DNA from: Candidatus Micrarchaeota archaeon
GTDB taxonomy: Archaea > Iainarchaeota > Iainarchaeia > JAADDC01
Length of the DNA: 10,801 nt
Direction of reading: 5' to 3'
NCBI GenBank assembly: GCA_027046625.1
Contig: JALTXX010000011.1
Span: 18,435 to 29,235 of the forward strand
The notes beneath the pieces were generated by a model that was not told the DNA's origin, ran no database searches, and saw only the letters and a list, made by a program, of their open reading frames with translations. Shown here in pieces: positions 1 to 10,801 of this stretch (its first letter is position 1; each line of letters starts with the position of its first letter). A program made the position numbers and the translations under genes.

Positions 1-1897
1 CGAATTGCGGGGATAACCCGCGGGAACCCGGGGAATTGAAACATCTTAGTACCCGGAGGAAAAGAAAGCAAACGCGATGCCGTGAGTAGGGGCGACCGAA
101 AGCGGCACAGCCCAAACCGAACCCCGGAGGGATAACCTTCGGGGGATGTGGTGTAATGTGGGCCGGGGGCACTCCCGACCACGGGTAGCCGAACTCCGGT
201 GGAAGTCCGGGGCCGAAGAGGGTGATAGCCCCGTAGGCGAAACCGTGGGGGAGATTCCCCGTGTCCCTGAGTACCGGGCGTTGGGACTCGCTCGGGAAGT
301 AGGGGGAAACTCGCCCCCAAGGCTAAATACTCCCCGAGTCCGATAGCGTACGAGTACCGTGAGGGAAAGCTGAAAAGTAGGGGTGGAACCCCGGTGAAAA
401 GAGCCTGAAACCAGCCGGGGATATGAGGTGCAGCGGGAAAGGATAATCCCCTGGAAGGAAGCCGGGGAAACCCGGTTGTACGACAGGGGATACCGCCGTT
501 GCACCGTCAGTCATGAATCACTGGCCGGGGAGTTCACCCGAGTGGCGAGCCTAAGGGGGTCAGCCCCGGAGGCGCAGGGAAACCGAGTGTCCCGCAGGGG
601 GTATCCCCCGAGGGGACCGGGTCTAAAATGGGCCCACAGTCACTCGGGTGAGACCCGAAGCCCGGCGATCTAGCCCGCGGCAGGGTGAAGCGGGTCATCA
701 GACCCGTGGAGGCCCGATACCGGTGCTGGTCTAACCGCTCGGGTGACCGCAGGGCTAGGGGCGAAAGACCAATCGAGCCGGGCGATAGCGGGCCCCCGCC
801 GAAATAGCCCTCAGGCTAGCCCGCCCTGAGGTTGTCCGGTGGGTAGAGCTACTGACTGGACCGGCACGGGGAGAATATCCCCACCGGTCCTGTCAAACTC
901 CGAACCGCCGGACTCCGTAGACGGGCGGAGTAGGGGACGGGGGGTAAGCTCCCGTTCCGAGAGGGGAACAACCCAGACCCGGGTTAAGGCCCCAAAGTGC
1001 CGGCTAAGTGCATCAAAGGATGTCCCCCTCCTGAGACAGCGGGGAGGTAGGCTTAGAAGCAGCCATCCTCTAAGGAGTGCGTAAAAGCTCACCCGCCGAG
1101 GAGGGAGGCGCCGAAGATGGACGGGGCTCAAGCCGGCCGCCGAGACCCGGGGGAGGGACCGGTGGTCCCTATCCCGTAGGCGGGCGTCCCGATGGCGTAG
1201 AAGGAGGGCCGTGAGGTCCTCTGGAGCCGTCGGGAATGAGGATCCCGGCGCTAGTAGCAACAAAGAGGGGTGAGAATCCCCTCCGCCGGAAGGGCCAGGG
1301 TTCCTCGGCACTGATCCTCAACCGAGGGTGAGTCGGTCCTAAGCCGGGTGGTAACACCTCCCCGGCGAAAGGGAAAGGGGTTAATATTCCCCTACCGTCC
1401 GGGTAGGTGCGGCAACGCAAGCCCAGCCCCCGACGCCTCGGGGTAGGCCGACACGGGTCGTCGCCCGTGCCAAACGGGATAGGCCCCTGGAGAGCCGTAA
1501 AGGCGAGAAAGGGGCCAAACCGTGACGGGGCGGGGTTTCCCGCTTCGGCTGATCCCTGGGGCCCGTGAAAAGGGGGTTGGGAACGATCCCGGACGACCGT
1601 ACCGAGAACGAGGACACGTGCCCCTGGCTGAGAAGGCCAAGGCGTGGCGGGTAACTCCGGCCGAGGGAATTCGGCAAACTGGCCCCGTATCTTCGGTAGA
1701 AGGGGTGCCTGCGGTCGTGGTAGCCCCACGAACCGCAGGTGGCACTGACAAGGGGGGTCCGACTGTTTATCAAAAACACAGGTCCCTGCTAGGCCGAAAG
1801 GCTTGGAACAGGGGCCGACGCCTGCTCACTGCCGGTACGTGAAGCCCGGGTACAACCGGGTGAAGCGCCGGTGAAGAGCGGGCCTAACCCTGAGGCT
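1..1897 (+). rRNA. rrl: 23S rRNA, 5' exon (true 5' end lies upstream of the window)
   Basis: Conserved LSU motifs: GAATTGAAACATCTTAGTACCC near 33, GAGTACCGTGAGGGAAAG near 352, GTPase centre GGCTTAGAAGCAGCCATCC...GCGTAAAAGCTCAC near 1050-1092, GGGAATTCGGCAAA near 1665, and helix 69 GGGCCTAACCCTGAGGCT ending at 1897. Confidence 0.98.
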
Positions 1898-2017
1898 CGA
1901 CCTTAAGGGCCTCACAAAACCCCGCTATATGCTGGGATCCCGCTGAGCCGCGCCGGTCCCGAGGAGGGAACAAACCGGCGTTAGGCAGATGATGGGGAAC
2001 CAGCAGGGAAGCACCAC

Positions 2018-2024
2018 GGAGGTG
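2018..2024 (+). promoter_or_regulatory. Shine-Dalgarno sequence GGAGGTG for the intron ORF
   Basis: GGAGGTG lies 6 nt before the TTG at 2031. Its GGAG part belongs to the 5' strand of P6a. Confidence 0.75.
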
Positions 2025-2030
2025 TAAGCC

Positions 2031-2567
2031 TTGGAAGGAACAAACATCAGGAAATACTACAGGAAAAGAAAACGATTCTTTGATTATATTGCAGGTTTTG
2101 TGGATGCAGGCGGAAGTTTCACAGTTAGCATAAAAAAGGGGGAAACAAGGTGGGGTTACGCAGTAGACCCAGAGTTCAAGATAAGCGTCAGAAAAGAGGA
2201 TGCAGAGGTTCTTTACCTCATCAGTGAAGCCTTACAGTGCGGAAAAATATACAGGAAACCAGGCAGCAGCCAGCTAATGTTTGTAGTGAAGGACAAGAGA
2301 ACCCTTAAGGAGAAGATCCTGCCCTTCTTCAGAAGGCACCCATTAATTGTAAAGCAAAAAGAGTTACAGATCTTCAGCGATATCGTGGAAAGGCTAAACA
2401 AAGGGGAACATCTCACAAAGGAGGGTTTCATCAGGGTATTAAGGCTTGCTGAGAAGCTTAGGAAACTACACAGAAAGGGAAAAAGCAGCTATAACATAGA
2501 GAGGATTATAGAAGAGCTCCGTGGTGCCCCTCAGAGACCATACGCGGGGCGCCCCGAAAAGGGATAG
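2031..2567 (+). CDS. Intron-encoded single-motif LAGLIDADG protein, I-CeuI-like, probably nuclease-deficient
   Basis: YIAGFVDAGGSF motif. The blocks VDPEF, VLYL, GKIYRKPGS and EKILPFF parallel I-CeuI (VDPEF, VLYL, GRIRHKSGS, EKVIPFY, as recalled), which is the L1923 intron enzyme. TTG start with an SD; A-rich ORF inserted in loop L6. Confidence 0.92.
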   Translation: MEGTNIRKYYRKRKRFFDYIAGFVDAGGSFTVSIKKGETRWGYAVDPEFKISVRKEDAEVLYLISEALQCGKIYRKPGSSQLMFVVKDKRTLKEKILPFFRRHPLIVKQKELQIFSDIVERLNKGEHLTKEGFIRVLRLAEKLRKLHRKGKSSYNIERIIEELRGAPQRPYAGRPEKG

Positions 2568-2623
2568 CATCCCGAAAGGGGCGATGATATGGTCCACCCC
2601 CACGGGAAACCGTGGGAGAGGGG

Positions 2624-3627
2624 CTTAAGGTAGCGTAATACCTCGCCGCTTAATTGGCGGCTTGCATGAAGGGCGTAACGAGACCCCCGCTGTCCCCGGC
2701 CGGAACCCGGCGAACGCACTTGGTGGTGTACATGCCACCGACCCCCGACGGGAGGTGAAGACCCCGTGGAGCTTTACCGCAGCCTGGCGTTGCCCGTGGG
2801 GTTCCTGTGCTCAGCGTAGGCGGGAGCCGTCGAAGCGGGGTCTTCGGGCCCCGTGGAGGCGCCCATGAGACACCGCCCACAGGAACTTCACGGGCTTACC
2901 CCGAAAGGGGGACATCGTCAGGTGGGCGGTTTGGCTGGGGCGGCACGCCGCTGATAAGGCATCAGCGGCGCCCAAAGGTCGGCTCAGGCGGGTCAGAAAT
3001 CCGCCGTAGAGTGCAAGGGCAGAAGCCGGCTTGACGGTGCTCCCAACAGCAGGGGGCGCCGAGGGGAAACCCGGGCCTAGCGAACCACAGGCTGGCACGA
3101 GTGGCCGCCTGTGCTGTCGGAGAAGTTACCCCGGGGGTAACAGAGTGGTCGCGGGCGAGAGCCCACATCGACCCCGCGGTTTGCTGCTCCGATGTCGGCT
3201 CGTGGTATCCTGGCCGTGCAGAAGCGGCCAAGGGTAGGGTTGTTCACCCGTTAAAACCGCACGTGAGCTGGGTTAAGTACGGCGCGAGCCAGTACGGTTA
3301 CTATCTGTCGGGGGTGTTGGCCGCCTGAGGGGAAGCTCCGCCAAGTACGAAAGGAACGGCGGGGCGCGGCCTCTGGTGGACCGGTTGTCCGACAGGGCAC
3401 TGCCGGGTAGCTACGCCGTAGGGGATAACCGCTGAAGGCATCTAAGCGGGAAGCCCTCCCCGAAAAATAGGCGGCCGTTCGTCTGTTGGGGAGCTTCGGC
3501 TCTCCGGCAGACGACGAGGGCTCCGGCAGAACACCGGGTTGATAGGCGCCGGGTGTACGGCGGAAGGGTTTCCGACCGCCTCAGCCCTGGCGTACTAATC
3601 GCCCGAGCTGTACCCTCGGTCCGGACC
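2624..3627 (+). rRNA. rrl: 23S rRNA, 3' exon (3' end approximate)
   Basis: CTTAAGGTAGCG, GAAGACCCCGTGGAGCTTTAC, P-loop GGCTGGGGCGG, PTC ...TAACAG and CGATGTCGGCTC, A-loop TGTTC, sarcin-ricin loop AGTACGAAAGGA at 3344-3355, GCTGAAGGCATCTAAGC, and TACTAATCGCCCGAG near 3593. Confidence 0.97.
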
Positions 3628-3687: not shown

Positions 3688-4310
3688 CCAGCCAAGAATC
3701 AATCACTCAAGCATGCACCACTCAAGGAGATTATACCACCGAAGAGCCGTGGAAAGTTATCAAAAGAAGGTTTGGTGATCCTCACCTAGCATACATGGTG
3801 TATACATCTCTACAAGGAGGCTCTGCAAAACAACATCCCAGAGAACTCATCAAAAAGGCGTTGACCCAGATGATCAAAAACGCTAGGGGCGTACTTTTCG
3901 AAGTAGTCCTTCCAAAGGCAGGCTTGGAAGCAATTATAAACAACGTAAAAGAAGGAGAGCTGTACCACCATGGCGGAAGAAAGGAAAAGTTCAGACAAAC
4001 GATTATTCCTCAAGACAAGAACTTTGGATGGTGGGTCTTCGAACAGACGCTGCATGATAAAAGAGGGAAGGTACTGGCTCACCAGAGGGCACTTATTCCC
4101 ACTCTCTTAAATGAAGAAGCCTTTCTAAATCTGCTAAGAGAGATTGGGAGAGAGATTAAGAAGAAAGTAAAAATTGTAGATGTTAGAGACAGGGATTCCC
4201 ACAAACCACCGGGGAAGGAGTATGCACACTGGTACCTCATCACAACAGAAGAGGTAAAGCACCCCTATAGGGAAAGTAGGGTCTTGGAAAGGGTCCTAGT
4301 CAGACAATAA
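3678..4310 (+). pseudogene. Probable 5'-truncated class I SAM-dependent methyltransferase-like gene (called ORF 3795-4310)
   Basis: The frame is open from 3678 and reads ...QGDYTTEEPWKVIKRRFGDPHLAYMVYTSL...ALTQMIKNARGVLFEVV..., resembling the post-motif-I half of a Rossmann methyltransferase. There is no GxGxG motif I and no good start upstream of 3795. The assignment is by eye only. Confidence 0.4.
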
Positions 4311-4414
4311 TAACGATAGGAGAGTAGGTTTTTGCACGTAGCAATAACGGAAGAGGTAAGATATAAACTAAAACGATATGCACCCCATATAGAGGTAGAG
4401 GTGCATAGCATCCC

Positions 4415-5179
4415 ATGAATCCCGCCACCCTATACAACAGCATCATAGAAGAGCTCAAAGCAAGAGAAAGGGATGGGGTGTGGACCCTATTTAATGATCC
4501 TCATCCGCTCCCTACTGCTGGTGCTGTACTACTTCTTTGCACAGAAGGTTACTGCAAGAACCACTATATAGACTCTATAAAGAAAGTAGCAGAGGAGGCA
4601 ACAGATGCAGAAAGTCTAAGATACGTAGCTCTTGCCTTGTATAGGTTGGGATTGCCAACTAAGAGGGCGGAAGACAAGCTAAAGAGGCTATATAAAGATG
4701 GTATGTGGAGGATAAACATGAAACTTCCGCCTGATCCTCTAACCACCTCCGCCATACTTGTTTCCCTTCACAACACACCCCTACTAAAAAAGGAAAGAAG
4801 GGCTGCCATTGAGCGCATAAAAGAGGAGAATAGGCTGCCGGAAGACATTGAGAGGCTAATAGGTGGACAAAGGCCTATCATATTAAACCTTTACAGGGCT
4901 TTGGCCCTTTCTCTATATGGAAAAGAGGAGGCAAAAGGGATATGGAATAGTATAAAAACCAAAGAACTAGTAGATCTACCCCCAAAAGTATACTTAGACA
5001 GGGGAATAAGGGAGGACAGACATTACCCAGCAGTGCTCTCCGCACTCTTGGCAAAAACCATGAAAGAAAATGTAGACAGATATCTGGAACCCTTCAAACG
5101 ACTTAACATAAAAAGGGAAGATAATGCTAGGCTCGTAACATTTGGATTCTATTTAGGGAAGTTACTTGAAAGGATTTAG
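4415..5179 (+). CDS. Hypothetical protein with prenyltransferase/terpene-cyclase-like (QW-like) alpha/alpha-barrel repeats
   Basis: 254-aa ORF with two repeats, LKARERDGVWTLFNDPHPLPTAGAVLLL and LKRLYKDGMWRINMKLPPDPLTTSAILVSL. GAGGTG at 4398-4403 is a possible SD. Confidence 0.65.
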   Translation: MNPATLYNSIIEELKARERDGVWTLFNDPHPLPTAGAVLLLCTEGYCKNHYIDSIKKVAEEATDAESLRYVALALYRLGLPTKRAEDKLKRLYKDGMWRINMKLPPDPLTTSAILVSLHNTPLLKKERRAAIERIKEENRLPEDIERLIGGQRPIILNLYRALALSLYGKEEAKGIWNSIKTKELVDLPPKVYLDRGIREDRHYPAVLSALLAKTMKENVDRYLEPFKRLNIKREDNARLVTFGFYLGKLLERI

Positions 5180-5185
5180 GGGATT

Positions 5186-5365
5186 ATGTACATCAGCAGA
5201 CCATTCCTTGAGGAAAAGATCAGAAGGGGAGGAAGAATACTGACTCTCCTAACCTACCTCCATAGGAAAAGAACACTACCAGAGGCAAACACAGGCCTCG
5301 TATCTAAGTGAACAGAGCTGGAGGTGTGGGATGTGGAGAGGATGAGAGAAGAGGTGAGGGTTTAA
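5186..5365 (+). pseudogene. Internally deleted third ATPase paralog
   Basis: ATG 5186 gives MYISRPFLEEKIRRGGRIL, resembling the N-termini of the two ATPases up to just before Walker A. After an in-frame TGA (5309-5311) the same frame gives TELEVWDVERMREEVRV*. 5311-5347 is identical to 7739-7775. Confidence 0.8.
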
Positions 5366-5386
5366 AATGTGATAATGTTATTATCA
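5361..5386 (+). promoter_or_regulatory. TATA box TTTAAAAT plus palindromic operator candidate TGATAAT-N3-ATTATCA
   Basis: The TATA-like element at 5361-5368 ends 22 nt before ATG 5391, the spacing expected for a leaderless transcript. A perfect 7-3-7 inverted repeat lies at 5370-5386. Confidence 0.6.
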
Positions 5387-5390
5387 TATT

Positions 5391-6560
5391 ATGATTATCA
5401 GAAGGGTGGAGTTGGACAGAATCCTTAATGGAGATAGACTGCTCCTCTATGGAAGAAGGAAAACAGGCAAGACATTTTACACACTCTACAAAAAGAAAGA
5501 CTGGGATTACGCCATAGTAAGATCAAGAAATGCAGTTTTAGTTGGTGATACAACCATGGACATAAACTCTTTTCTTGTGTACGCAAGGAAGGTAGACAGC
5601 ATAGTGATTGATGAGTTTCATAGGGCAGATCCCGTATTATTTGATGCACTTCAAGCTCACAAGCTCCCAGAAAATACCATACTAATTACATCCACAATGC
5701 ATCTCTTTAGGCAGAGGGAGGCATACTCTAAAATACTTGGCCTCCTCCCCGAACATAAGGTACCCCTCATATCTCCAGTGGATCTGGTTAGAGTCCTTCA
5801 GGGCGAGAGTCTCGAAAACGTCCTATTTTGGCAGGAGCCCACACAGATAGGACAAACCCTTGAAGATATACTTAGAAGTGGAAGGCTTTTTGTTCGGGAA
5901 CTCGTAGGAGAGATCCTTACAGAAGAAGACATCGCCATTCATAAGAAGATGGAGGGCATTCTGCTTGCCACTGCTGGCTCCACCACAAAACTCACAGATA
6001 TTGCAGGAACTTTAGCAAGATTTGGTTATATAGATAGGGCTGAGACTGGGCTCATAACCCCCTATATTGATACAGCAATAAAGATCGGGCTCATAGAGAG
6101 AGTTCCCCTCTTTGGAAAGAGAAGAGGTAGTCTTTACAGACATACCTCACCACTAACAGACTTGTTCTACTACCTTGACAAGAAATATGGCATCTTTGAG
6201 AGAGATTTACCCATTAAATTCCTTCTTAAGGTAATAAAGAAGAGGATTTCCTTCTATGTGGAACGCTTTGTTGAACAACTACTTGCAGAACTTTATGGAC
6301 TTCAACCAGTAAAATGTTTGAAACCAGAGGTAGACATTCTTCTCCTAGAATTCAAGAAGCCGAAGATTGTGGGGGAGGTGAAGTGGAAGGATAAGATAAC
6401 AAAGAGGGAGGTTAGGGAGGTGGAGGAGAAGCTGGAAATATTTGAAGGGGCGAGAAAGATCCTCTTTGTGAAGGATGCTTCCTCTGTGCCAGAAACAGAG
6501 CTGGAGGTGTGGGATGTGGAGAGGATTGGGGAGGAGGCGATAAAAATATCTAAGGATTGA
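5391..6560 (+). CDS. Archaeal ATPase (COG1672-like, STAND-related) with winged helix and C-terminal DUF234/PD-(D/E)XK nuclease-like domain
   Basis: Walker A YGRRKTGKT, Walker B IVIDEFHR, wHTH-like TTKLTDIA...YIDTAIKIGLIERVP, and nuclease motif EVDILLL...GEVKW. Confidence 0.9.
   Translation: MIIRRVELDRILNGDRLLLYGRRKTGKTFYTLYKKKDWDYAIVRSRNAVLVGDTTMDINSFLVYARKVDSIVIDEFHRADPVLFDALQAHKLPENTILITSTMHLFRQREAYSKILGLLPEHKVPLISPVDLVRVLQGESLENVLFWQEPTQIGQTLEDILRSGRLFVRELVGEILTEEDIAIHKKMEGILLATAGSTTKLTDIAGTLARFGYIDRAETGLITPYIDTAIKIGLIERVPLFGKRRGSLYRHTSPLTDLFYYLDKKYGIFERDLPIKFLLKVIKKRISFYVERFVEQLLAELYGLQPVKCLKPEVDILLLEFKKPKIVGEVKWKDKITKREVREVEEKLEIFEGARKILFVKDASSVPETELEVWDVERIGEEAIKISKD
6370..6431 (+). 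repeat. Direct repeat block 1, copy A (copy B at 7600-7661)
   Basis: 61/62 nt identical; the single mismatch is 6406 G versus 7636 A. Confidence 0.95.
6474..6526 (+). repeat. Direct repeat block 2, copy A (copy B at 7719-7771; partial copy at 5311-5343)
   Basis: 53/53 nt identical between copies A and B; the last 33 nt are also present at 5311-5343. Confidence 0.95.
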
Positions 6561-6569
6561 TTTTTAATA
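6561..6569 (+). promoter_or_regulatory. Possible TATA box for the second ATPase
   Basis: TTTTTAATA ends about 21 nt before ATG 6591, the same spacing as for the first ATPase, and there is no SD. The T-run could also act as a terminator. Confidence 0.4.
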
Positions 6570-6590
6570 ATTGTTACACCAATCATTAAT

Positions 6591-7802
6591 ATGCCAATTA
6601 TAATAAGAAGGAGAACCCTTGAAGAAAGATGGGAGAGGACAAGCAGCAGGAGACTAGTATATGGAAGGAGGAAAACAGGGAAGAGCTTCTTTGTGAGGGA
6701 GTTTACAGAGTGGGATAAGTATTATCTAGTAGGGAGAGGGGGTTATGTTTGGGATATAGAGAAGAGAGGAAGGAAGTTCACCTATGAGGAATTCTTAAAT
6801 ATCTTTCCAGAGGTCTGTGAAGGCGCGGTTGTGGACGAGTTCCACAGGTTACCAACAAGTTTTCTTGATCAGATACAGGCGTATCAGCCAAAGGAGATCA
6901 CTCTCGTGACTTCCACCCTTCACCTTGCCAAGGAGCTAGTCTCAGGAAATTCTCCCATAATGGGAATGTTTTCAGAGATAGAGGTGGGACTTATCTCACC
7001 TCTTGATGTTCTAAGAGATATATCGGAGTATTATGATGGAAGGGAGCTACTAGAGATGGCAGTGTACTTAAGGGAACCATTGCTTCTTGAGTACGTACCA
7101 GAGAGGGGTCTCAGAGACGTATTACATAATGGTCTAAGACACGCCGAAAGAATCGTGTCCGAAATCTTTACCGAGGAAGAAAAAAGGTATACAAAGTCTT
7201 ATAGGGCCGTTCTTCTGGCAATTACCCAAGGAACCACAAAATTCTCCCAGATAATAAACGAAATAGTGAAAGAAGCTGGTGTTTCTCCTACTGCAGCTTC
7301 CTACTATATCCAGATGTTAGTAGACATGGGAATAATAAGGAGAATTCCTGTCTTTGGCGAAAGAAAATCTGTTTATAGGCATGTGTCATCCCTCTTGGAT
7401 CTCTACTACTATCTAGAAGGTAAATACGGAATTTCAGATCTTTGGCTAGTCCAAGAAGATGAGCTGACAACTCTCTTACCTAGACATGTAGAGTGGTTCG
7501 CTGAGGATTATTTCTCTGAGCTATATGGGCTAAGACCGGTGAAGATATTAAAGCCTGAGGTGGATATTGCTCTTGTAAGGTTTAATAGACTTGCTTTTCT
7601 GGGGGAGGTGAAGTGGAAGGATAAGATAACAAAGAAGGAGGTTAGGGAGGTGGAGGAGAAGTTTAGTGAGGTGGAGAAAAGGTTTGGGGAGGTGGAGAGA
7701 AAGGTACTGGTGGTGCCTGATGCTTCCTCTGTGCCAGAAACAGAGCTGGAGGTGTGGGATGTGGAGAGGATGAGAAGAGCTGTCAACCTGACGAGTAACT
7801 AG
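6591..7802 (+). CDS. Second archaeal ATPase-wHTH-DUF234/PD-(D/E)XK paralog
   Basis: Walker A YGRRKTGKS, Walker B AVVDEFHR, wHTH-like TTKFSQII...YYIQMLVDMGIIRRIP, and EVDIALV...GEVKW. Confidence 0.9.
   Translation: MPIIIRRRTLEERWERTSSRRLVYGRRKTGKSFFVREFTEWDKYYLVGRGGYVWDIEKRGRKFTYEEFLNIFPEVCEGAVVDEFHRLPTSFLDQIQAYQPKEITLVTSTLHLAKELVSGNSPIMGMFSEIEVGLISPLDVLRDISEYYDGRELLEMAVYLREPLLLEYVPERGLRDVLHNGLRHAERIVSEIFTEEEKRYTKSYRAVLLAITQGTTKFSQIINEIVKEAGVSPTAASYYIQMLVDMGIIRRIPVFGERKSVYRHVSSLLDLYYYLEGKYGISDLWLVQEDELTTLLPRHVEWFAEDYFSELYGLRPVKILKPEVDIALVRFNRLAFLGEVKWKDKITKKEVREVEEKFSEVEKRFGEVERKVLVVPDASSVPETELEVWDVERMRRAVNLTSN
7647..7704 (+). repeat. Imperfect 21-nt in-frame tandem repeat (about 2.8 units)
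   Basis: GAGGTGGAGGAGAAGTTTAGT / GAGGTGGAGAAAAGGTTTGGG / GAGGTGGAGAGAAAGG, encoding EVEEKFS-EVEKRFG-EVERK. Confidence 0.75.
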
Positions 7803-8515
7803 TTCACAACCTCCACCATACCAAATCCTAAAGCTGTCCTCTCTCCAAAACCAGCCTTATATCCTACCTCAAGTAGCTTGGGTGTTCCACTTACAGTAAA
7901 GGTAAACATCCATCCAACATTCCATGTATCTTTTACCCTTATGCGTTTTCTCTGTATGTGTGAGATATGCAGTACCTCAAAGAGAGGATTTCTAAGGGAT
8001 TCTCCAAGGAAGAGTTCACACTTCTTTACAAGGTTCTCCTTCATGTGTATGAAAAACTCCTTCTCTAGAGGGGATAAGTCCCTGTGGGGGTTGGTTTTAT
8101 CCTTTGAGTAGCCCCTTAGGAGGATGGGAGAGAGCGTTTTAAAGGTCATTATGGGAGAGAAGGATGGTTCCTTCACTAAATGCGCATCCTCAATGTAAAA
8201 GGTTGTTCTTCCTATCCTTATATCCCTTTTCCTTGCCACACCTGCAAGAAATGCTGCACCTACCTCTTTGTCTATGGTGGAGAAGAACAGTGTATAGGTA
8301 TCTCCTTTTAGCAGCAGCCCACCTTCACTCTGTTCATACTTTCCAAAGAGCCAAGAAAATGTATATGGTTTTGGAAGTGATGTCTTATGAAGGTAAACGG
8401 CCATTTTTGGGTTGCCCTCCCCTATAATATTGTAAATAGCCCCTGAAAGCTTGTACATATAATCCCAGGGTATCTTATTTCCTTCCTTTGGTAGAAGGGT
8501 AAGCTTCACTCTCAT
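7799..8515 (-). CDS. cas6: CRISPR-associated endoribonuclease Cas6
   Basis: MRVKLTL N-terminus (ATG 8515 preferred to 8557). IYNII...NPKMAVYLHKTSLPKPYTFS carries the Tyr/His/Lys triad of Pyrococcus furiosus Cas6, and the C-terminal glycine-rich loop is GFGERTALGFG. Confidence 0.95.
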   Translation of the reverse strand: MRVKLTLLPKEGNKIPWDYMYKLSGAIYNIIGEGNPKMAVYLHKTSLPKPYTFSWLFGKYEQSEGGLLLKGDTYTLFFSTIDKEVGAAFLAGVARKRDIRIGRTTFYIEDAHLVKEPSFSPIMTFKTLSPILLRGYSKDKTNPHRDLSPLEKEFFIHMKENLVKKCELFLGESLRNPLFEVLHISHIQRKRIRVKDTWNVGWMFTFTVSGTPKLLEVGYKAGFGERTALGFGMVEVVN

Positions 8516-8540
8516 ACTAAACAAAACTAAGAGAAAGTAT

Positions 8541-10801
8541 TTATCTATCCATACCAAACGATCTCAAAACCTTCACCTTTACTAAATCGTTTATTAGTAC
8601 CCACAGAGCAGCGTAAATCCATACAAAGGCAACCAACAACCAGCCTATCGGCTGCACAAACACCCCCATTGCTGCAAGAATGCTACCTATCATATCTGTA
8701 ATTAGTACTGCAGCCAGCAGCCTCCTATCTGGATAAGGTCTTTCCCACACATAACCTCTGGACCGAGAGATAAGAAGTGTGAAATGCCCTGCAACCACTA
8801 GTTTTAGAAAGATAAGTGTTTGAATTGCTTCCATAGGAAGGTGTAATACTTCAAAGGCTATGTACAAAAGCAGTGCAGAGCTGATTAGGCCTATAACACC
8901 CAATATAGTAGCTAACATCACCAACCTCTTAGGCTGCCACCTTAGGGGTCTTTGAGACTCAGACACATTGTCAAATGCTATGGTAAGAATAGGTAAATCA
9001 TTTAGGAGTGCCAAAAGTATGACCATTGTGCTGTTAATAGGGTAAAAATCGAACAACAATATGGAGGTAGCCAAAAATAGCAGAATTCTTATGGTTTCTG
9101 TGAGTCTGTAGATTACATAGCTTTCCATCCTCCTAAATATCCTTCTTGCTGTGCGAAAGGCGTCCGATATAACAGATATTCCTGGTTCTAGCAATACTAT
9201 CGAGGCAGCCTGAATTGCCGCCCCGGTAGCACCCGCAACAGCTATTCCACAGTTGGATTTCTTAAGGGCGGGTACATCATTTATTCCGTCGCCCGTCATT
9301 GCTACTAGGTGTCCTGTCTCTTGTAATAGCCCTACTATTCTATATTTATCATCTGGCAACACCTCTGAAAAGATATCAAATTCATTTACTGCCTTTACCA
9401 TGTCGTGTCTGTGCATCTTTCTCAGCTTAGCTGCACTTAGAACCTTCTCTCCTATTCCTACAAGTTTACCTATAAATCTAGCTACGCTGGAGTGGTCCCC
9501 CGTTATCATCTTTACAGTAACACCCATCTTCTTGATAGAAGCCACAGCCTGGGCAGCATCTGGCCTAGGAGGATCGTATAAGCCTATAACACCTATTAGT
9601 TTATAACCTTCCCCAAAATCAACAGCTACGGCTATGGATCTAAATCCCTTTTCGGCAAATTCGTCCACCACATTTCTCATATCTTCTTCTACATCCTCTT
9701 TATTTCTAGAAATAGCCAGTATTACCTGGGGTGCCCCCTTTGTTACTCTTATCTTTTTTCCCTTCCAAATCACCTCAGCCTCTGTGCGCTTTAACTCCGG
9801 GGAGAAGGGACGGTAGTATAGCACCGTTACTTTCGGCTTCTTTACCCGTGACAATATAGCATCGTCTATGGGGTCTTTATCTTCTTCTCTAGACGCTAGT
9901 GAGGCATAAATGAGGACTTCTTCCTTACTAAATCCTCCGATGGGATACACATCGCCTACTTCTATCCTGTTTAGTGTTATAGTACCCGTTTTATCCGTGC
10001 ATAACACATCTACGCTTGCAAGCTCTTCTATCGAGACAAGCTTTGTAACTATGGCGTTCCTTCTGGCAAGCTCAAGCGCACCAACTACCATGGTTATAGA
10101 CAACACGGCAGGCAGGGCAGCCGGAATAGACGCCACCGCCAGTACAAGGGAAAATTTCAGCACCGACAGAACGTCTTTTCCTCTAATAAGGGTTTCAACT
10201 ATTATCATTATACCTATTACCAACAGAGCGAGAAACATTAGGTAGTTGCCCATCCTTATAACGGCTTTTTGGAGCTCGCTCTGCACTTCAGTCTCATTAA
10301 CAAGCTGCACGGACTTTCCGAAGTAGGTACTGGTTCCCGTTCCTATTACAACAGCTATAGCATCTCCTCTTCTCACGGTAGAGCCAGAGTATACTATGGC
10401 ACCCTCCTGTTTTGGCACGGGCAGAGACTCACCAGTAAGCACAGATTCGTCTACCTCTAACTCTCCCTCAACAATTCTCGAATCTGCTGGCACTATATCC
10501 CCGGGGCGTAACTTTATAACGTCTCCAGGCACCAACAATCTGGCATCTATTACTTTCCATCTGCCGTCTCTAAGAACACGGGACTTTACCGCCATTTGCT
10601 TTTTGAGATACCCTATGACATTTTCCGCCTTCCACTCCTGCCAGAACTCTACTACTGCGTTTATAAGTAGAAGAAGCAGTATAATCCAGAAATCAACCAT
10701 GTCTCCAACAAGGAAGGATAATAATAGTGCCAGCTCTATCATCCAAGGTATGGGCCCCCAGAAGTATGAGAGTATCTTTAAAATTAGATGTTTCTTCTTC
10801 T
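8541..10801 (-). CDS. P-type IIIA plasma-membrane H+-ATPase (5' end outside the window)
   Basis: TGES, phosphorylation motif DKTGT, KGAP, DPPR, MITGD, GDGIND, IIIA-type ASIPAALP, YVIYR and LLND. The frame stays open upstream of 10742 (KKKHLILKILSYFWGPIPWMIE), so the real start is beyond the edge. Confidence 0.95.
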   Translation of the reverse strand, partial: KKKHLILKILSYFWGPIPWMIELALLLSFLVGDMVDFWIILLLLLINAVVEFWQEWKAENVIGYLKKQMAVKSRVLRDGRWKVIDARLLVPGDVIKLRPGDIVPADSRIVEGELEVDESVLTGESLPVPKQEGAIVYSGSTVRRGDAIAVVIGTGTSTYFGKSVQLVNETEVQSELQKAVIRMGNYLMFLALLVIGIMIIVETLIRGKDVLSVLKFSLVLAVASIPAALPAVLSITMVVGALELARRNAIVTKLVSIEELASVDVLCTDKTGTITLNRIEVGDVYPIGGFSKEEVLIYASLASREEDKDPIDDAILSRVKKPKVTVLYYRPFSPELKRTEAEVIWKGKKIRVTKGAPQVILAISRNKEDVEEDMRNVVDEFAEKGFRSIAVAVDFGEGYKLIGVIGLYDPPRPDAAQAVASIKKMGVTVKMITGDHSSVARFIGKLVGIGEKVLSAAKLRKMHRHDMVKAVNEFDIFSEVLPDDKYRIVGLLQETGHLVAMTGDGINDVPALKKSNCGIAVAGATGAAIQAASIVLLEPGISVISDAFRTARRIFRRMESYVIYRLTETIRILLFLATSILLFDFYPINSTMVILLALLNDLPILTIAFDNVSESQRPLRWQPKRLVMLATILGVIGLISSALLLYIAFEVLHLPMEAIQTLIFLKLVVAGHFTLLISRSRGYVWERPYPDRRLLAAVLITDMIGSILAAMGVFVQPIGWLLVAFVWIYAALWVLINDLVKVKVLRSFGMDR

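What the first reader, a model, noticed from the sequence alone, without database searches (positions are those of the whole stretch)
1898..2623. Complete group I ribozyme in the 23S rRNA of an apparently hyperthermophilic archaeon
Seen: P1, P3-P9, P9.0, P10, the U.G splice site and the terminal G are all intact, the stems are extremely GC-rich and there is essentially no P2. Known: classic rRNA introns of archaeal hyperthermophiles are bulge-helix-bulge type and cut by EndA. Archaeal group I introns were recognised only comparatively recently, mostly from metagenomes, and L1923 is known mainly from algal organelles (I-CeuI) and a few bacteria. Inference: this is a compact, heat-adapted self-splicing ribozyme in helix 69 that must be removed to make a functional ribosome, and it may have crossed domains.
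Basis: partly seen in the sequence, partly recalled or inferred. Interest (0 to 1): 0.85.

Follow-up and report, generated by a model that had tools for sequence, protein, structure and literature searches.

The report
Group I intron in archaeal 23S rRNA
The insert is a real, complete group I self-splicing intron carrying a homing-endonuclease gene in the only 23S rRNA gene of a tiny heat-loving archaeon, but introns of this type at this site in archaea were already described in 2018.

Summary
Confirmed. Window 1898-2623 (726 nt) interrupts an archaeal 23S rRNA at E. coli position 1923. It has every group I hallmark: P1 with a U.G splice pair, P10, the P3/P7 pseudoknot, P4-P6, P8, P9 and a terminal G.

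Across 34 homologous archaeal introns at the same site, P1 and P3 pair in 100% of cells with compensatory changes. Covariance models built without this sequence hit both halves (E 3e-17 and 1e-12). No bulge-helix-bulge motif can form.

It lies in the P6 loop, and its catalytic acidic residue is replaced by Gly.

The host has a 652-kb genome with reverse gyrase. Its 23S exons are 64.7% GC against 44% for the genome, so a (hyper)thermophile is plausible.

The novelty claim fails. Nawrocki, Jones and Eddy 2018 reported 39 archaeal group I introns, 9 of them IB4 introns at LSU/1923. One of these (IB4.28) aligns with ours.

The endonuclease groups with archaeal copies, so there is no sign of a recent cross-domain jump. 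Splicing in this organism was not shown. Verdict: a new member of a known kind, of modest interest.

The parts
1..1897 (+). 23S rRNA 5' exon; the window starts at model position 130
   Evidence: RF02540 LSU_rRNA_archaea, 2479 bits over 1-3618. The junction is fixed by intronless same-family relatives.
1898..2623 (+). Group I intron (IB4-like), 726 nt, at E. coli LSU position 1923
   Evidence: Helices located; covariation; covariance-model hits; same site as the published IB4.28.
2624..3618 (+). 23S rRNA 3' exon
1892..1913 (+). P1: exon 1892-1897 paired with the internal guide 1908-1913. The splice pair is U1897.G1908.
   Evidence: In one search, 100% of cells pair, 3 of 6 pairs have compensatory changes, and the U.G pair is present in 34 of 34.
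1901..1907 (+). P10 guide strand, pairing with 3' exon 2624-2630 (7 bp here)
   Evidence: The two innermost pairs are held in 34 of 34; the outer pairs are weakly conserved in the family (53-76% paired).
1920..1925 (+). P3 5' strand (partner 2544-2549); spans the ORF
   Evidence: 100% paired, 5 of 6 pairs covary.
1931..2004 (+). P4-P5-P5a/b/c domain
   Evidence: Recovered by free folding (z -3.45). The P5b and P5c helices are 83-93% paired with many compensatory changes.
2005..2021 (+). P6 (2005-2008) and P6a (2011-2021) 5' strands; partners 2528-2531 and 2517-2527
   Evidence: 11 perfect bp close the ORF-bearing loop. An anchored helix of at least 7 bp with different sequences is present in 22 of 34 family members.
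2018..2024 (+). Shine-Dalgarno-like purine run, 6 nt before the TTG start; 4 of its bases lie in P6a
   Evidence: Read from the sequence. That it functions as a ribosome-binding site is inference.
2031..2567 (+). ORF of 178 aa: a single-motif LAGLIDADG endonuclease homologue in L6. Its last 51 nt overlap P6a', P6', J6/7, P7, P3' and P8, and the stop codon lies in the P8a loop.
   Evidence: PF00961, 63.1 bits, E 5e-17; PDB relatives include I-CeuI 2ex5 (E 4.5e-15).
2109..2111 (+). Codon for Gly27, at the position of the metal-binding acidic residue of the LAGLIDADG motif
   Evidence: 11 of 11 protein homologues have D or E here. So do 144 of 148 motif hits in fetched loci; ours is the only G.
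2534..2595 (+). P7 (2536-2541/2589-2594), extended by G2534-C2595 with A2535 bulged. It encloses P3' 2544-2549, P8 2550-2555/2578-2583 and P8a.
   Evidence: P7 is 99.5% paired and P8 90% paired with 6 of 6 pairs covarying. Reading this as the guanosine-binding site is by recalled analogy with Tetrahymena.
2597..2623 (+). P9.0 (2597-2598/2621-2622), P9 hairpin 2599-2605/2610-2616 with a GAAA loop, and terminal G2623
   Evidence: All 33 aligned family introns end in G.

Best explanation
Window 1898-2623 is a mobile-type group I intron of the IB4 kind, inserted at position 1923 of the host's single 23S rRNA gene.

Proposed mechanism:
1. After transcription, the internal guide (1901-1913) pairs with the last six exon bases (P1, U.G at the cleavage site) and with the first seven bases of the 3' exon (P10).
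2. The P3-P9 core folds around the P7 guanosine pocket.
3. An external guanosine attacks after U1897.

The 495-nt P6 loop carries a LAGLIDADG gene that once drove homing into intronless alleles. In this copy the catalytic acidic residue is Gly and the start codon is TTG, so the nuclease is probably inactive and the intron now immobile.

What is shown: the structure, its covariation, its homology to published archaeal IB4 introns, and the empty sites in relatives. What is inferred: the splicing chemistry, heat adaptation, and loss of nuclease activity.
For: - Structure and covariation on 34 introns: P1 and P3 100% paired, P7 99.5%, U.G pair 34 of 34, 57 of 83 pairs with changes on both sides, 0 of 500 shuffles as good.
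- The guide sequence tracks the host's own exon hexamer across four exon variants.
- Covariance models built from 32 other introns, without this one or its close relative, hit 1892-2018 (76.5 bits, E 3e-17) and 2520-2627 (62.4 bits, E 1e-12). Nothing else in the window scores below E 0.5.
- The published IB4.28 intron (NJDR01000009.1 12303-13059, LSU/1923) lies in locus L076 with the same boundaries and core.
- The Rfam group I model aligns the conserved P7/P3'/P8/P7'/P9 stretch (E 0.0024).
- Free folding recovers the helices (z -3.45 and -4.06).
- 26 of 28 relatives with a readable site are intronless, the sporadic pattern of a mobile intron.
- The core is 63-65% GC against 42% for the ORF-only part.
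- RNA-run contigs join 1897 to 2624 exactly, which agrees with the boundaries but is ambiguous as to organism.
Against: - No RNA evidence from this organism. The joined RNA contigs are only 90-99% alike, have short sides (20-28 nt) and may come from intronless relatives.
- RF00028 scores below its gathering threshold (22.3 against 50 bits).
- The GISSD IB4 model itself was not available, so the subgroup call rests on homology to one published IB4 intron.
- The family alignment was gathered through the endonuclease, so members are related, and shuffle controls overstate significance.
- P9, P8a and part of P6a are poorly aligned across the family (34-68% paired).
- Loss of nuclease activity rests on one residue in a low-depth assembly.
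Confidence: 0.9

Rival explanations
1. It is a classical archaeal bulge-helix-bulge intron with a LAGLIDADG gene, cut by the tRNA splicing endonuclease EndA and joined by a ligase, as in Desulfurococcus or Pyrobaculum rRNA introns.
For: The host encodes EndA (PF01974, 101 bits). BHB introns of thermophilic archaea often carry LAGLIDADG genes (stated in PMC6125680). One PDB relative of the ORF is an rRNA-intron endonuclease from such an intron (3e54, E 1.5e-17).
Against: A scan of all registers around both junctions found only a continuous helix (P10), with flanking helices of 0-1 bp. There is no canonical motif here, nor in 0 of 33 family members. The full group I core with covariation would then be unexplained.
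Confidence: 0.03
2. It is a group I intron whose ribozyme no longer splices on its own and depends on the retained, nuclease-dead LAGLIDADG protein as a maturase, or on another host factor.
For: The ORF is intact over 178 aa although its catalytic residue is Gly. LAGLIDADG maturases that lost cleavage are known in fungal mitochondria (recalled). The intron lies in the only 23S gene, so there is strong selection to keep splicing efficient.
Against: All core helices and the U.G and terminal G are intact and GC-rich. No defect in the ribozyme is visible. The substitution may simply be recent decay.
Confidence: 0.2
3. The insert is an assembly chimera, or the rRNA contig was binned into the wrong genome.
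For: The genome comes from a metagenome. rRNA contigs are often mis-binned. In the best DNA run the contigs leave a hole at 1952-1995, and the piece crossing the 3' junction has only 29 exon letters.
Against: The guide sequence is complementary to this host's own exon hexamer, which differs from that of most family members. An independent assembly of the same order (G015) has the homologous intron at the same site. Contig GC outside the rRNA (43.3%) matches the genome (44.1%). About 32 other assemblies show the same arrangement.
Confidence: 0.03

Closest known systems
Archaeal IB4 group I introns at LSU/1923 (Nawrocki, Jones and Eddy 2018, NAR 46:7970; for example IB4.28 in an Aenigmarchaeota MAG and IB4.9 in Caldiarchaeum subterraneum)
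   Same: Same insertion site, same core sequence blocks, same size class (687-1133 nt when ORF-bearing) and a LAGLIDADG ORF. IB4.28 aligns along the whole length, and models that include it hit both halves of ours.
   Different: The host is a 652-kb, reverse-gyrase-bearing archaeon of an unnamed lineage. The core is more GC-rich (0.63-0.64 against 0.35 for the IB4.28 3' half). The endonuclease lacks its catalytic acidic residue.
Chlamydomonas eugametos chloroplast LSU intron 5 encoding I-CeuI (L1923)
   Same: Same rRNA site and a single-motif LAGLIDADG protein. I-CeuI (2ex5) matches the ORF at E 4.5e-15.
   Different: It is organellar. The protein is a much more distant relative than the archaeal copies (the best archaeal copy is 62% identical). 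RNA homology to it was not tested here.
Group I introns in 23S rRNA of hyperthermophilic bacteria (Thermotoga; Nesbo and Doolittle 2003, seen only as a reference)
   Same: A self-splicing group I intron with a LAGLIDADG gene in the 23S rRNA of a hyperthermophile.
   Different: Bacterial host and, by recall, a different site (L1931). Not compared here.
Archaeal BHB rRNA introns with LAGLIDADG genes (I-DmoI, I-PorI, I-Vdi141I)
   Same: Thermophilic archaeal 23S host and a LAGLIDADG ORF.
   Different: There is no BHB motif at the junctions, and a full group I core is present.

Membership tests
Group I intron | P1 helix between the 5' exon end and an internal guide, with U.G at the cleavage site | tested here: met
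   1892-1897/1908-1913. 100% paired, U.G in 34 of 34, compensatory changes in 3 of 6 pairs.
Group I intron | Terminal guanosine at the 3' splice site | tested here: met
   G2623. All 33 family introns end in G.
Group I intron | Conserved core P3-P4-P6-P7-P8 with the P3/P7 pseudoknot, supported by covariation | tested here: met
   P3 100% paired, P4 fully paired, P7 99.5%, P8 90%. The structure beats 500 of 500 shuffles and all slid controls.
Group I intron | Guanosine-binding P7 with a bulged A followed by a G-C pair | tested here: met
   G2534-C2595, A2535 bulged, G2536-C2594. The canonical pattern is recalled, not taken from a call.
Group I intron | Rfam RF00028 at or above its gathering score | tested here: not met
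   22.3 bits against 50, E 0.0024. Nawrocki et al. report that RF00028 found none of the archaeal introns either.
Group I intron | Guanosine-dependent self-splicing | not testable with these tools
   Needs an in vitro assay.
IB4 subgroup (GISSD) | Significant match to the IB4 covariance model | tested here: inconclusive
   The GISSD model was not available. Surrogate models built from 32 archaeal L1923 introns, including the published IB4.28, hit at E 3e-17 and 1e-12.
Archaeal BHB intron | Bulge-helix-bulge motif placing both splice bonds in 3-nt bulges 4 bp apart, with flanking helices | tested here: not met
   flanking helices of 0-1 bp here; 0 of 33 in the family.
LAGLIDADG homing endonuclease, single-motif homodimeric type | LAGLIDADG_1 domain above the Pfam cut-off | tested here: met
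   63.1 bits against 23.1.
LAGLIDADG homing endonuclease, single-motif homodimeric type | Acidic metal-binding residue at the end of the motif | tested here: not met
   Gly27 here. D or E in 11 of 11 homologues and in 144 of 148 motif hits.
LAGLIDADG homing endonuclease, single-motif homodimeric type | Cleavage of the intronless L1923 site | not testable with these tools
   Needs an enzyme assay.

The most novel reading that the evidence does not exclude
This may be the first group I ribozyme documented in a reverse-gyrase-bearing, ultra-small (Nanoarchaeota-like) hyperthermophile. It has a 231-nt core with 79% G-C pairs that self-splices at very high temperature. Its LAGLIDADG protein has lost cleavage but is kept as a splicing helper, which would be an archaeal case of endonuclease-to-maturase conversion.
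Probability: 0.15. Interest if true: 0.5.

Novelty: new member of a known kind. Interest (0 to 1): 0.3.

Why it matters
It adds a clean, fully intact, heat-type example to the archaeal group I introns recognised since 2018, in a host with a minimal genome and only one 23S gene, where splicing is obligatory. The GC-rich 231-nt core could be a useful thermostable ribozyme for biochemistry. The intact but apparently nuclease-dead endonuclease bears on how homing elements decay or are co-opted. It does not change the picture of intron distribution.

Tried and rejected
- RNA evidence for splicing. Three metatranscriptome runs (X5, X12, X17) have contigs joining 1897 to 2624 (1, 2 and 2 contigs) and no depth over the intron. 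The contigs are only 90-99% alike, their shorter sides are 20-28 nt, and a DNA contig of another, more abundant organism in X1 is also intronless there. They may be rRNA of intronless relatives, so this is not counted as proof of splicing or of expression.
- Check against chimerism with X1 contigs. Identical pieces cover 2028-2652, but there is a hole at 1952-1995, and the 3' junction piece has 29 exon letters, under the tool's 31-letter rule. Inconclusive.
- Rfam at gathering threshold gave only the LSU rRNA.
- NCBIfam gave nothing for the ORF.
- Naming the host lineage. I did not pursue this further.
- Supplementary tables of Nawrocki et al. (P7 helices, expanded table) could not be seen. 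They may list further details of the LSU/1923 introns.
- Claim that this is not in print. Two searches found no paper reporting a group I intron in Nanoarchaeota rRNA. I saw listings only, plus passages of PMC11001627, PMC11270868 and PMC13748971.
- Rows dropped. Of 160 fetched loci, only those where BLAST with this window's archaeal exon flanks placed both junctions were aligned: 36 loci, 32 after removing 4 duplicates, plus L076 added by its published coordinates. Bacterial loci were therefore left out of the covariation count. Seven relatives with a 23S match had no locus fetched and were not inspected. 5 of 81 rows gave no ORF for the tree.

Full report
WHAT IS THERE

Window 1-3618 is an archaeal large-subunit rRNA (RF02540, 2479 bits, model positions 130-2987). 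It matches the model continuously except for one insert.

Three genomes of the same family (G006, G012, G013) carry the uninterrupted site. Their flanks are identical to ours over the 20+25 nt shown. Because C1898 and C2624 are the same base, the boundaries could equally be one position further on at each end.

The published intron IB4.28 (NJDR01000009.1 12303-13059, LSU/1923; Table 1 of PMC6125680) lies in my locus L076 with the same 3' exon start. The site is therefore E. coli L1923, at the 3' base of helix 69 (helix numbering recalled).

ANATOMY

- P1 1892-1897/1908-1913, with U1897.G1908 at the cleavage site
- P10 1901-1907/2624-2630
- six unpaired bases between P1 and P3, so no P2
- P3 1920-1925/2544-2549
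- P4 1931-1935/2000-2004
- P5 1938-1942/1993-1997, with P5a, P5b and P5c
- P6 2005-2008/2528-2531
- P6a 2011-2021/2517-2527, an 11-bp perfect helix that closes a 495-nt loop
- P7 2536-2541/2589-2594, extended by G2534-C2595 with A2535 bulged
- P8 2550-2555/2578-2583, with an inner hairpin
- P9 2599-2605/2610-2616, capped by a GAAA loop
- a 2-bp P9.0, and terminal G2623

Of 76 pairs, 60 are G-C, 12 A-U and 4 G.U. Folding each half alone recovers these helices (z -3.45, with 1 of 200 shuffles as good; z -4.06, with 0 of 200).

THE ORF

It is a LAGLIDADG_1 protein (63.1 bits, E 5e-17) with a single motif, like the homodimeric enzymes. PDB relatives include I-CeuI (2ex5, E 4.5e-15) and many I-OnuI-family enzymes.

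It fills the P6 loop. Its last 51 nt are also P6a', P6', J6/7, P7, P3' and the 5' strand of P8, and the stop codon lies in the P8a loop. This overlap explains the conserved C-terminal peptide seen in homologues.

Two signs of decay:
- Residue 27 (codon 2109-2111) is Gly, where 11 of 11 homologues and 144 of 148 motif hits in fetched loci have Asp or Glu. In that count, 13 of 161 sources gave no motif and two L hits are off-target. This residue binds the catalytic metal in the family (recalled from the literature on I-CreI and relatives).
- The start is TTG where the nearest relative with DNA (L003) has ATG.

A purine-rich Shine-Dalgarno-like run at 2018-2024 partly lies in P6a.

IS IT A GROUP I INTRON?

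The Rfam model alone is weak (22.3 bits against a 50-bit threshold, E 0.0024). It does align the conserved P7/P3'/P8/P7'/P9 blocks. Nawrocki et al. state that RF00028 found none of their archaeal introns.

I gathered relatives through the endonuclease:
- 12 proteins were aligned.
- 402 of 599 candidate stretches in species genomes encode relatives, as do 380 of 597 in metagenomes. The best 80 of each were kept.
- BLAST with this window's exon flanks placed both junctions in 36 loci, 32 after removing four duplicates. In all of them the insert lies at the identical site.

With the window and L076 this gave a 34-row alignment (A2). Results on A2:
- 78.5% of cells pair, against 65.9% in shuffles (0 of 500 shuffles as high) and 39-48% with partners slid.
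- P1 is 100% paired, with compensatory changes in 3 of 6 pairs and U.G in 34 of 34.
- P3 is 100% paired, with 5 of 6 pairs covarying.
- P7 is 99.5% paired.
- P8 is 90% paired, with 6 of 6 pairs covarying.
- The P5b and P5c helices are 83-93% paired.
- P9, P8a and the outer P6a columns are poorly aligned (34-68% paired).

A per-sequence search finds an anchored P6a helix of at least 7 bp with unrelated sequences in 22 of 34 (median best helix 9 bp).

The guide sequence follows the host's own exon hexamer through four exon variants. This also argues against a chimeric join.

Covariance models built from the other 32 introns, without this window or its close relative L003, hit 1892-2018 (76.5 bits, E 3e-17) and 2520-2627 (62.4 bits, E 1e-12). 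The next best hits in the 10.8-kb window are at E above 0.5. The own genome has only this one match.

BHB RIVAL

The host has EndA (101 bits). A scan of all registers found only the continuous P10 helix, with flanking helices of 0-1 bp. None of 33 family members has a canonical motif.

HOST

- The genome is 652,019 bases in 18 contigs, 94% complete.
- It holds a full-length reverse gyrase (1373.5 bits against a 471.7 cut-off, no stops).
- Genome GC is 44.1%, while the 23S exons are 64.7%.
- The best DNA holder is labelled a hydrothermal vent metagenome and holds 100%-identical contigs.

A thermophilic to hyperthermophilic, DPANN-sized archaeon is a fair reading. The lineage name and growth temperature were not determined.

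The intron's RNA parts are 63-65% GC, while the ORF-only part is 42.4%, close to the genome. This fits selection on RNA stability.

DISTRIBUTION AND ORIGIN

- The intron DNA matches 1 of 60 relatives (G015, same order; 69% identity).
- Of 29 relatives' 23S loci fetched, 28 show the site. 26 are empty and two are occupied: G015 (728 nt) and G016 (625 nt, with two matches to the 3' model).
- None of the five same-genus genomes has this 23S region assembled.
- The 3' model hits 76 of 80 species-genome loci, bacteria included, so the family spans domains, as already known.
- In a tree of 76 endonucleases (5 of 81 rows gave no ORF), this copy pairs with L003 (100/99). It lies among archaeal rows, and 45 of 46 bacterial rows form one clade (99/95). 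The 46th bacterial row is a long branch.
- Within archaea the tree cuts across phyla, which fits transfer or mis-binning.

There is no evidence for a recent cross-domain move of this copy.

RNA EVIDENCE

Contigs of three metatranscriptomes join 1897 to 2624 and show no depth over the intron. They are only 90-99% alike, with short sides, so they may be intronless relatives. Splicing in this organism is inferred, not shown.

COMPARISON AND VERDICT

Nawrocki, Jones and Eddy 2018 (whole text read) reported 39 archaeal group I introns. Nine of these are IB4 introns at LSU/1923, and 21 of the 39 carry LAGLIDADG ORFs.

Ours is a further member of that set. It stands out only for its likely hyperthermophilic, minimal-genome host, its GC-rich compact core (231 nt without the loop) and its probably inactive endonuclease.

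Two literature searches found no report of such an intron in Nanoarchaeota (listings and some passages only).

Interest is modest.

Noticed in passing
window 2109-2111: The LAGLIDADG motif's catalytic acidic residue is Gly in this copy. It is D or E in 11 of 11 protein homologues and in 144 of 148 motif hits. The ORF is otherwise intact, so it may be a dead nuclease or a maturase.
   Followed up: partly
L174 (G016:C4), about 1870-2504 on the minus strand: A same-class relative has a 625-nt insert at the same 23S site with two separate matches to the 3'-core model (51.6 and 49.7 bits). It probably holds two ORF-less group I introns close together.
   Followed up: no
window 3795-7802: Four consecutive plus-strand ORFs (171, 254, 389 and 403 aa) have no Pfam or NCBIfam family above cut-off; the last has only a weak HTH_24 match. 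They lie next to a Cas6 gene (7799-8557, minus strand). No CRISPR array was seen in the window.
   Followed up: partly
window 8541-10742 (minus strand): A P-type ATPase gene (E1-E2_ATPase E 2.8e-51, plus a HAD hydrolase domain) overlaps the end of Cas6 by a few bases.
   Followed up: no
loci L020, L031, L033: Identical or near-identical endonucleases sit in MAGs labelled Brockarchaeota, Hadarchaeum and Thermoproteota. This points to very recent transfer or to mis-binned rRNA contigs.
   Followed up: no
run X1 on window 1789-2626: A depth-16 DNA contig in the best-holding run matches only 1916-1937, 2527-2548 and from 2626 on. This may be a related intron with a different or absent ORF in another organism of the same sample.
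   Followed up: no
bacterial loci L029, L048, L054, L056, L060, L061, L062, L067, L078, L079, L080 and L082 (Actinomycetota, except L056, which is Armatimonadota): Each of these bacterial 23S stretches has three or four matches to the 3'-core model, so they carry several group I introns in one gene.
   Followed up: no
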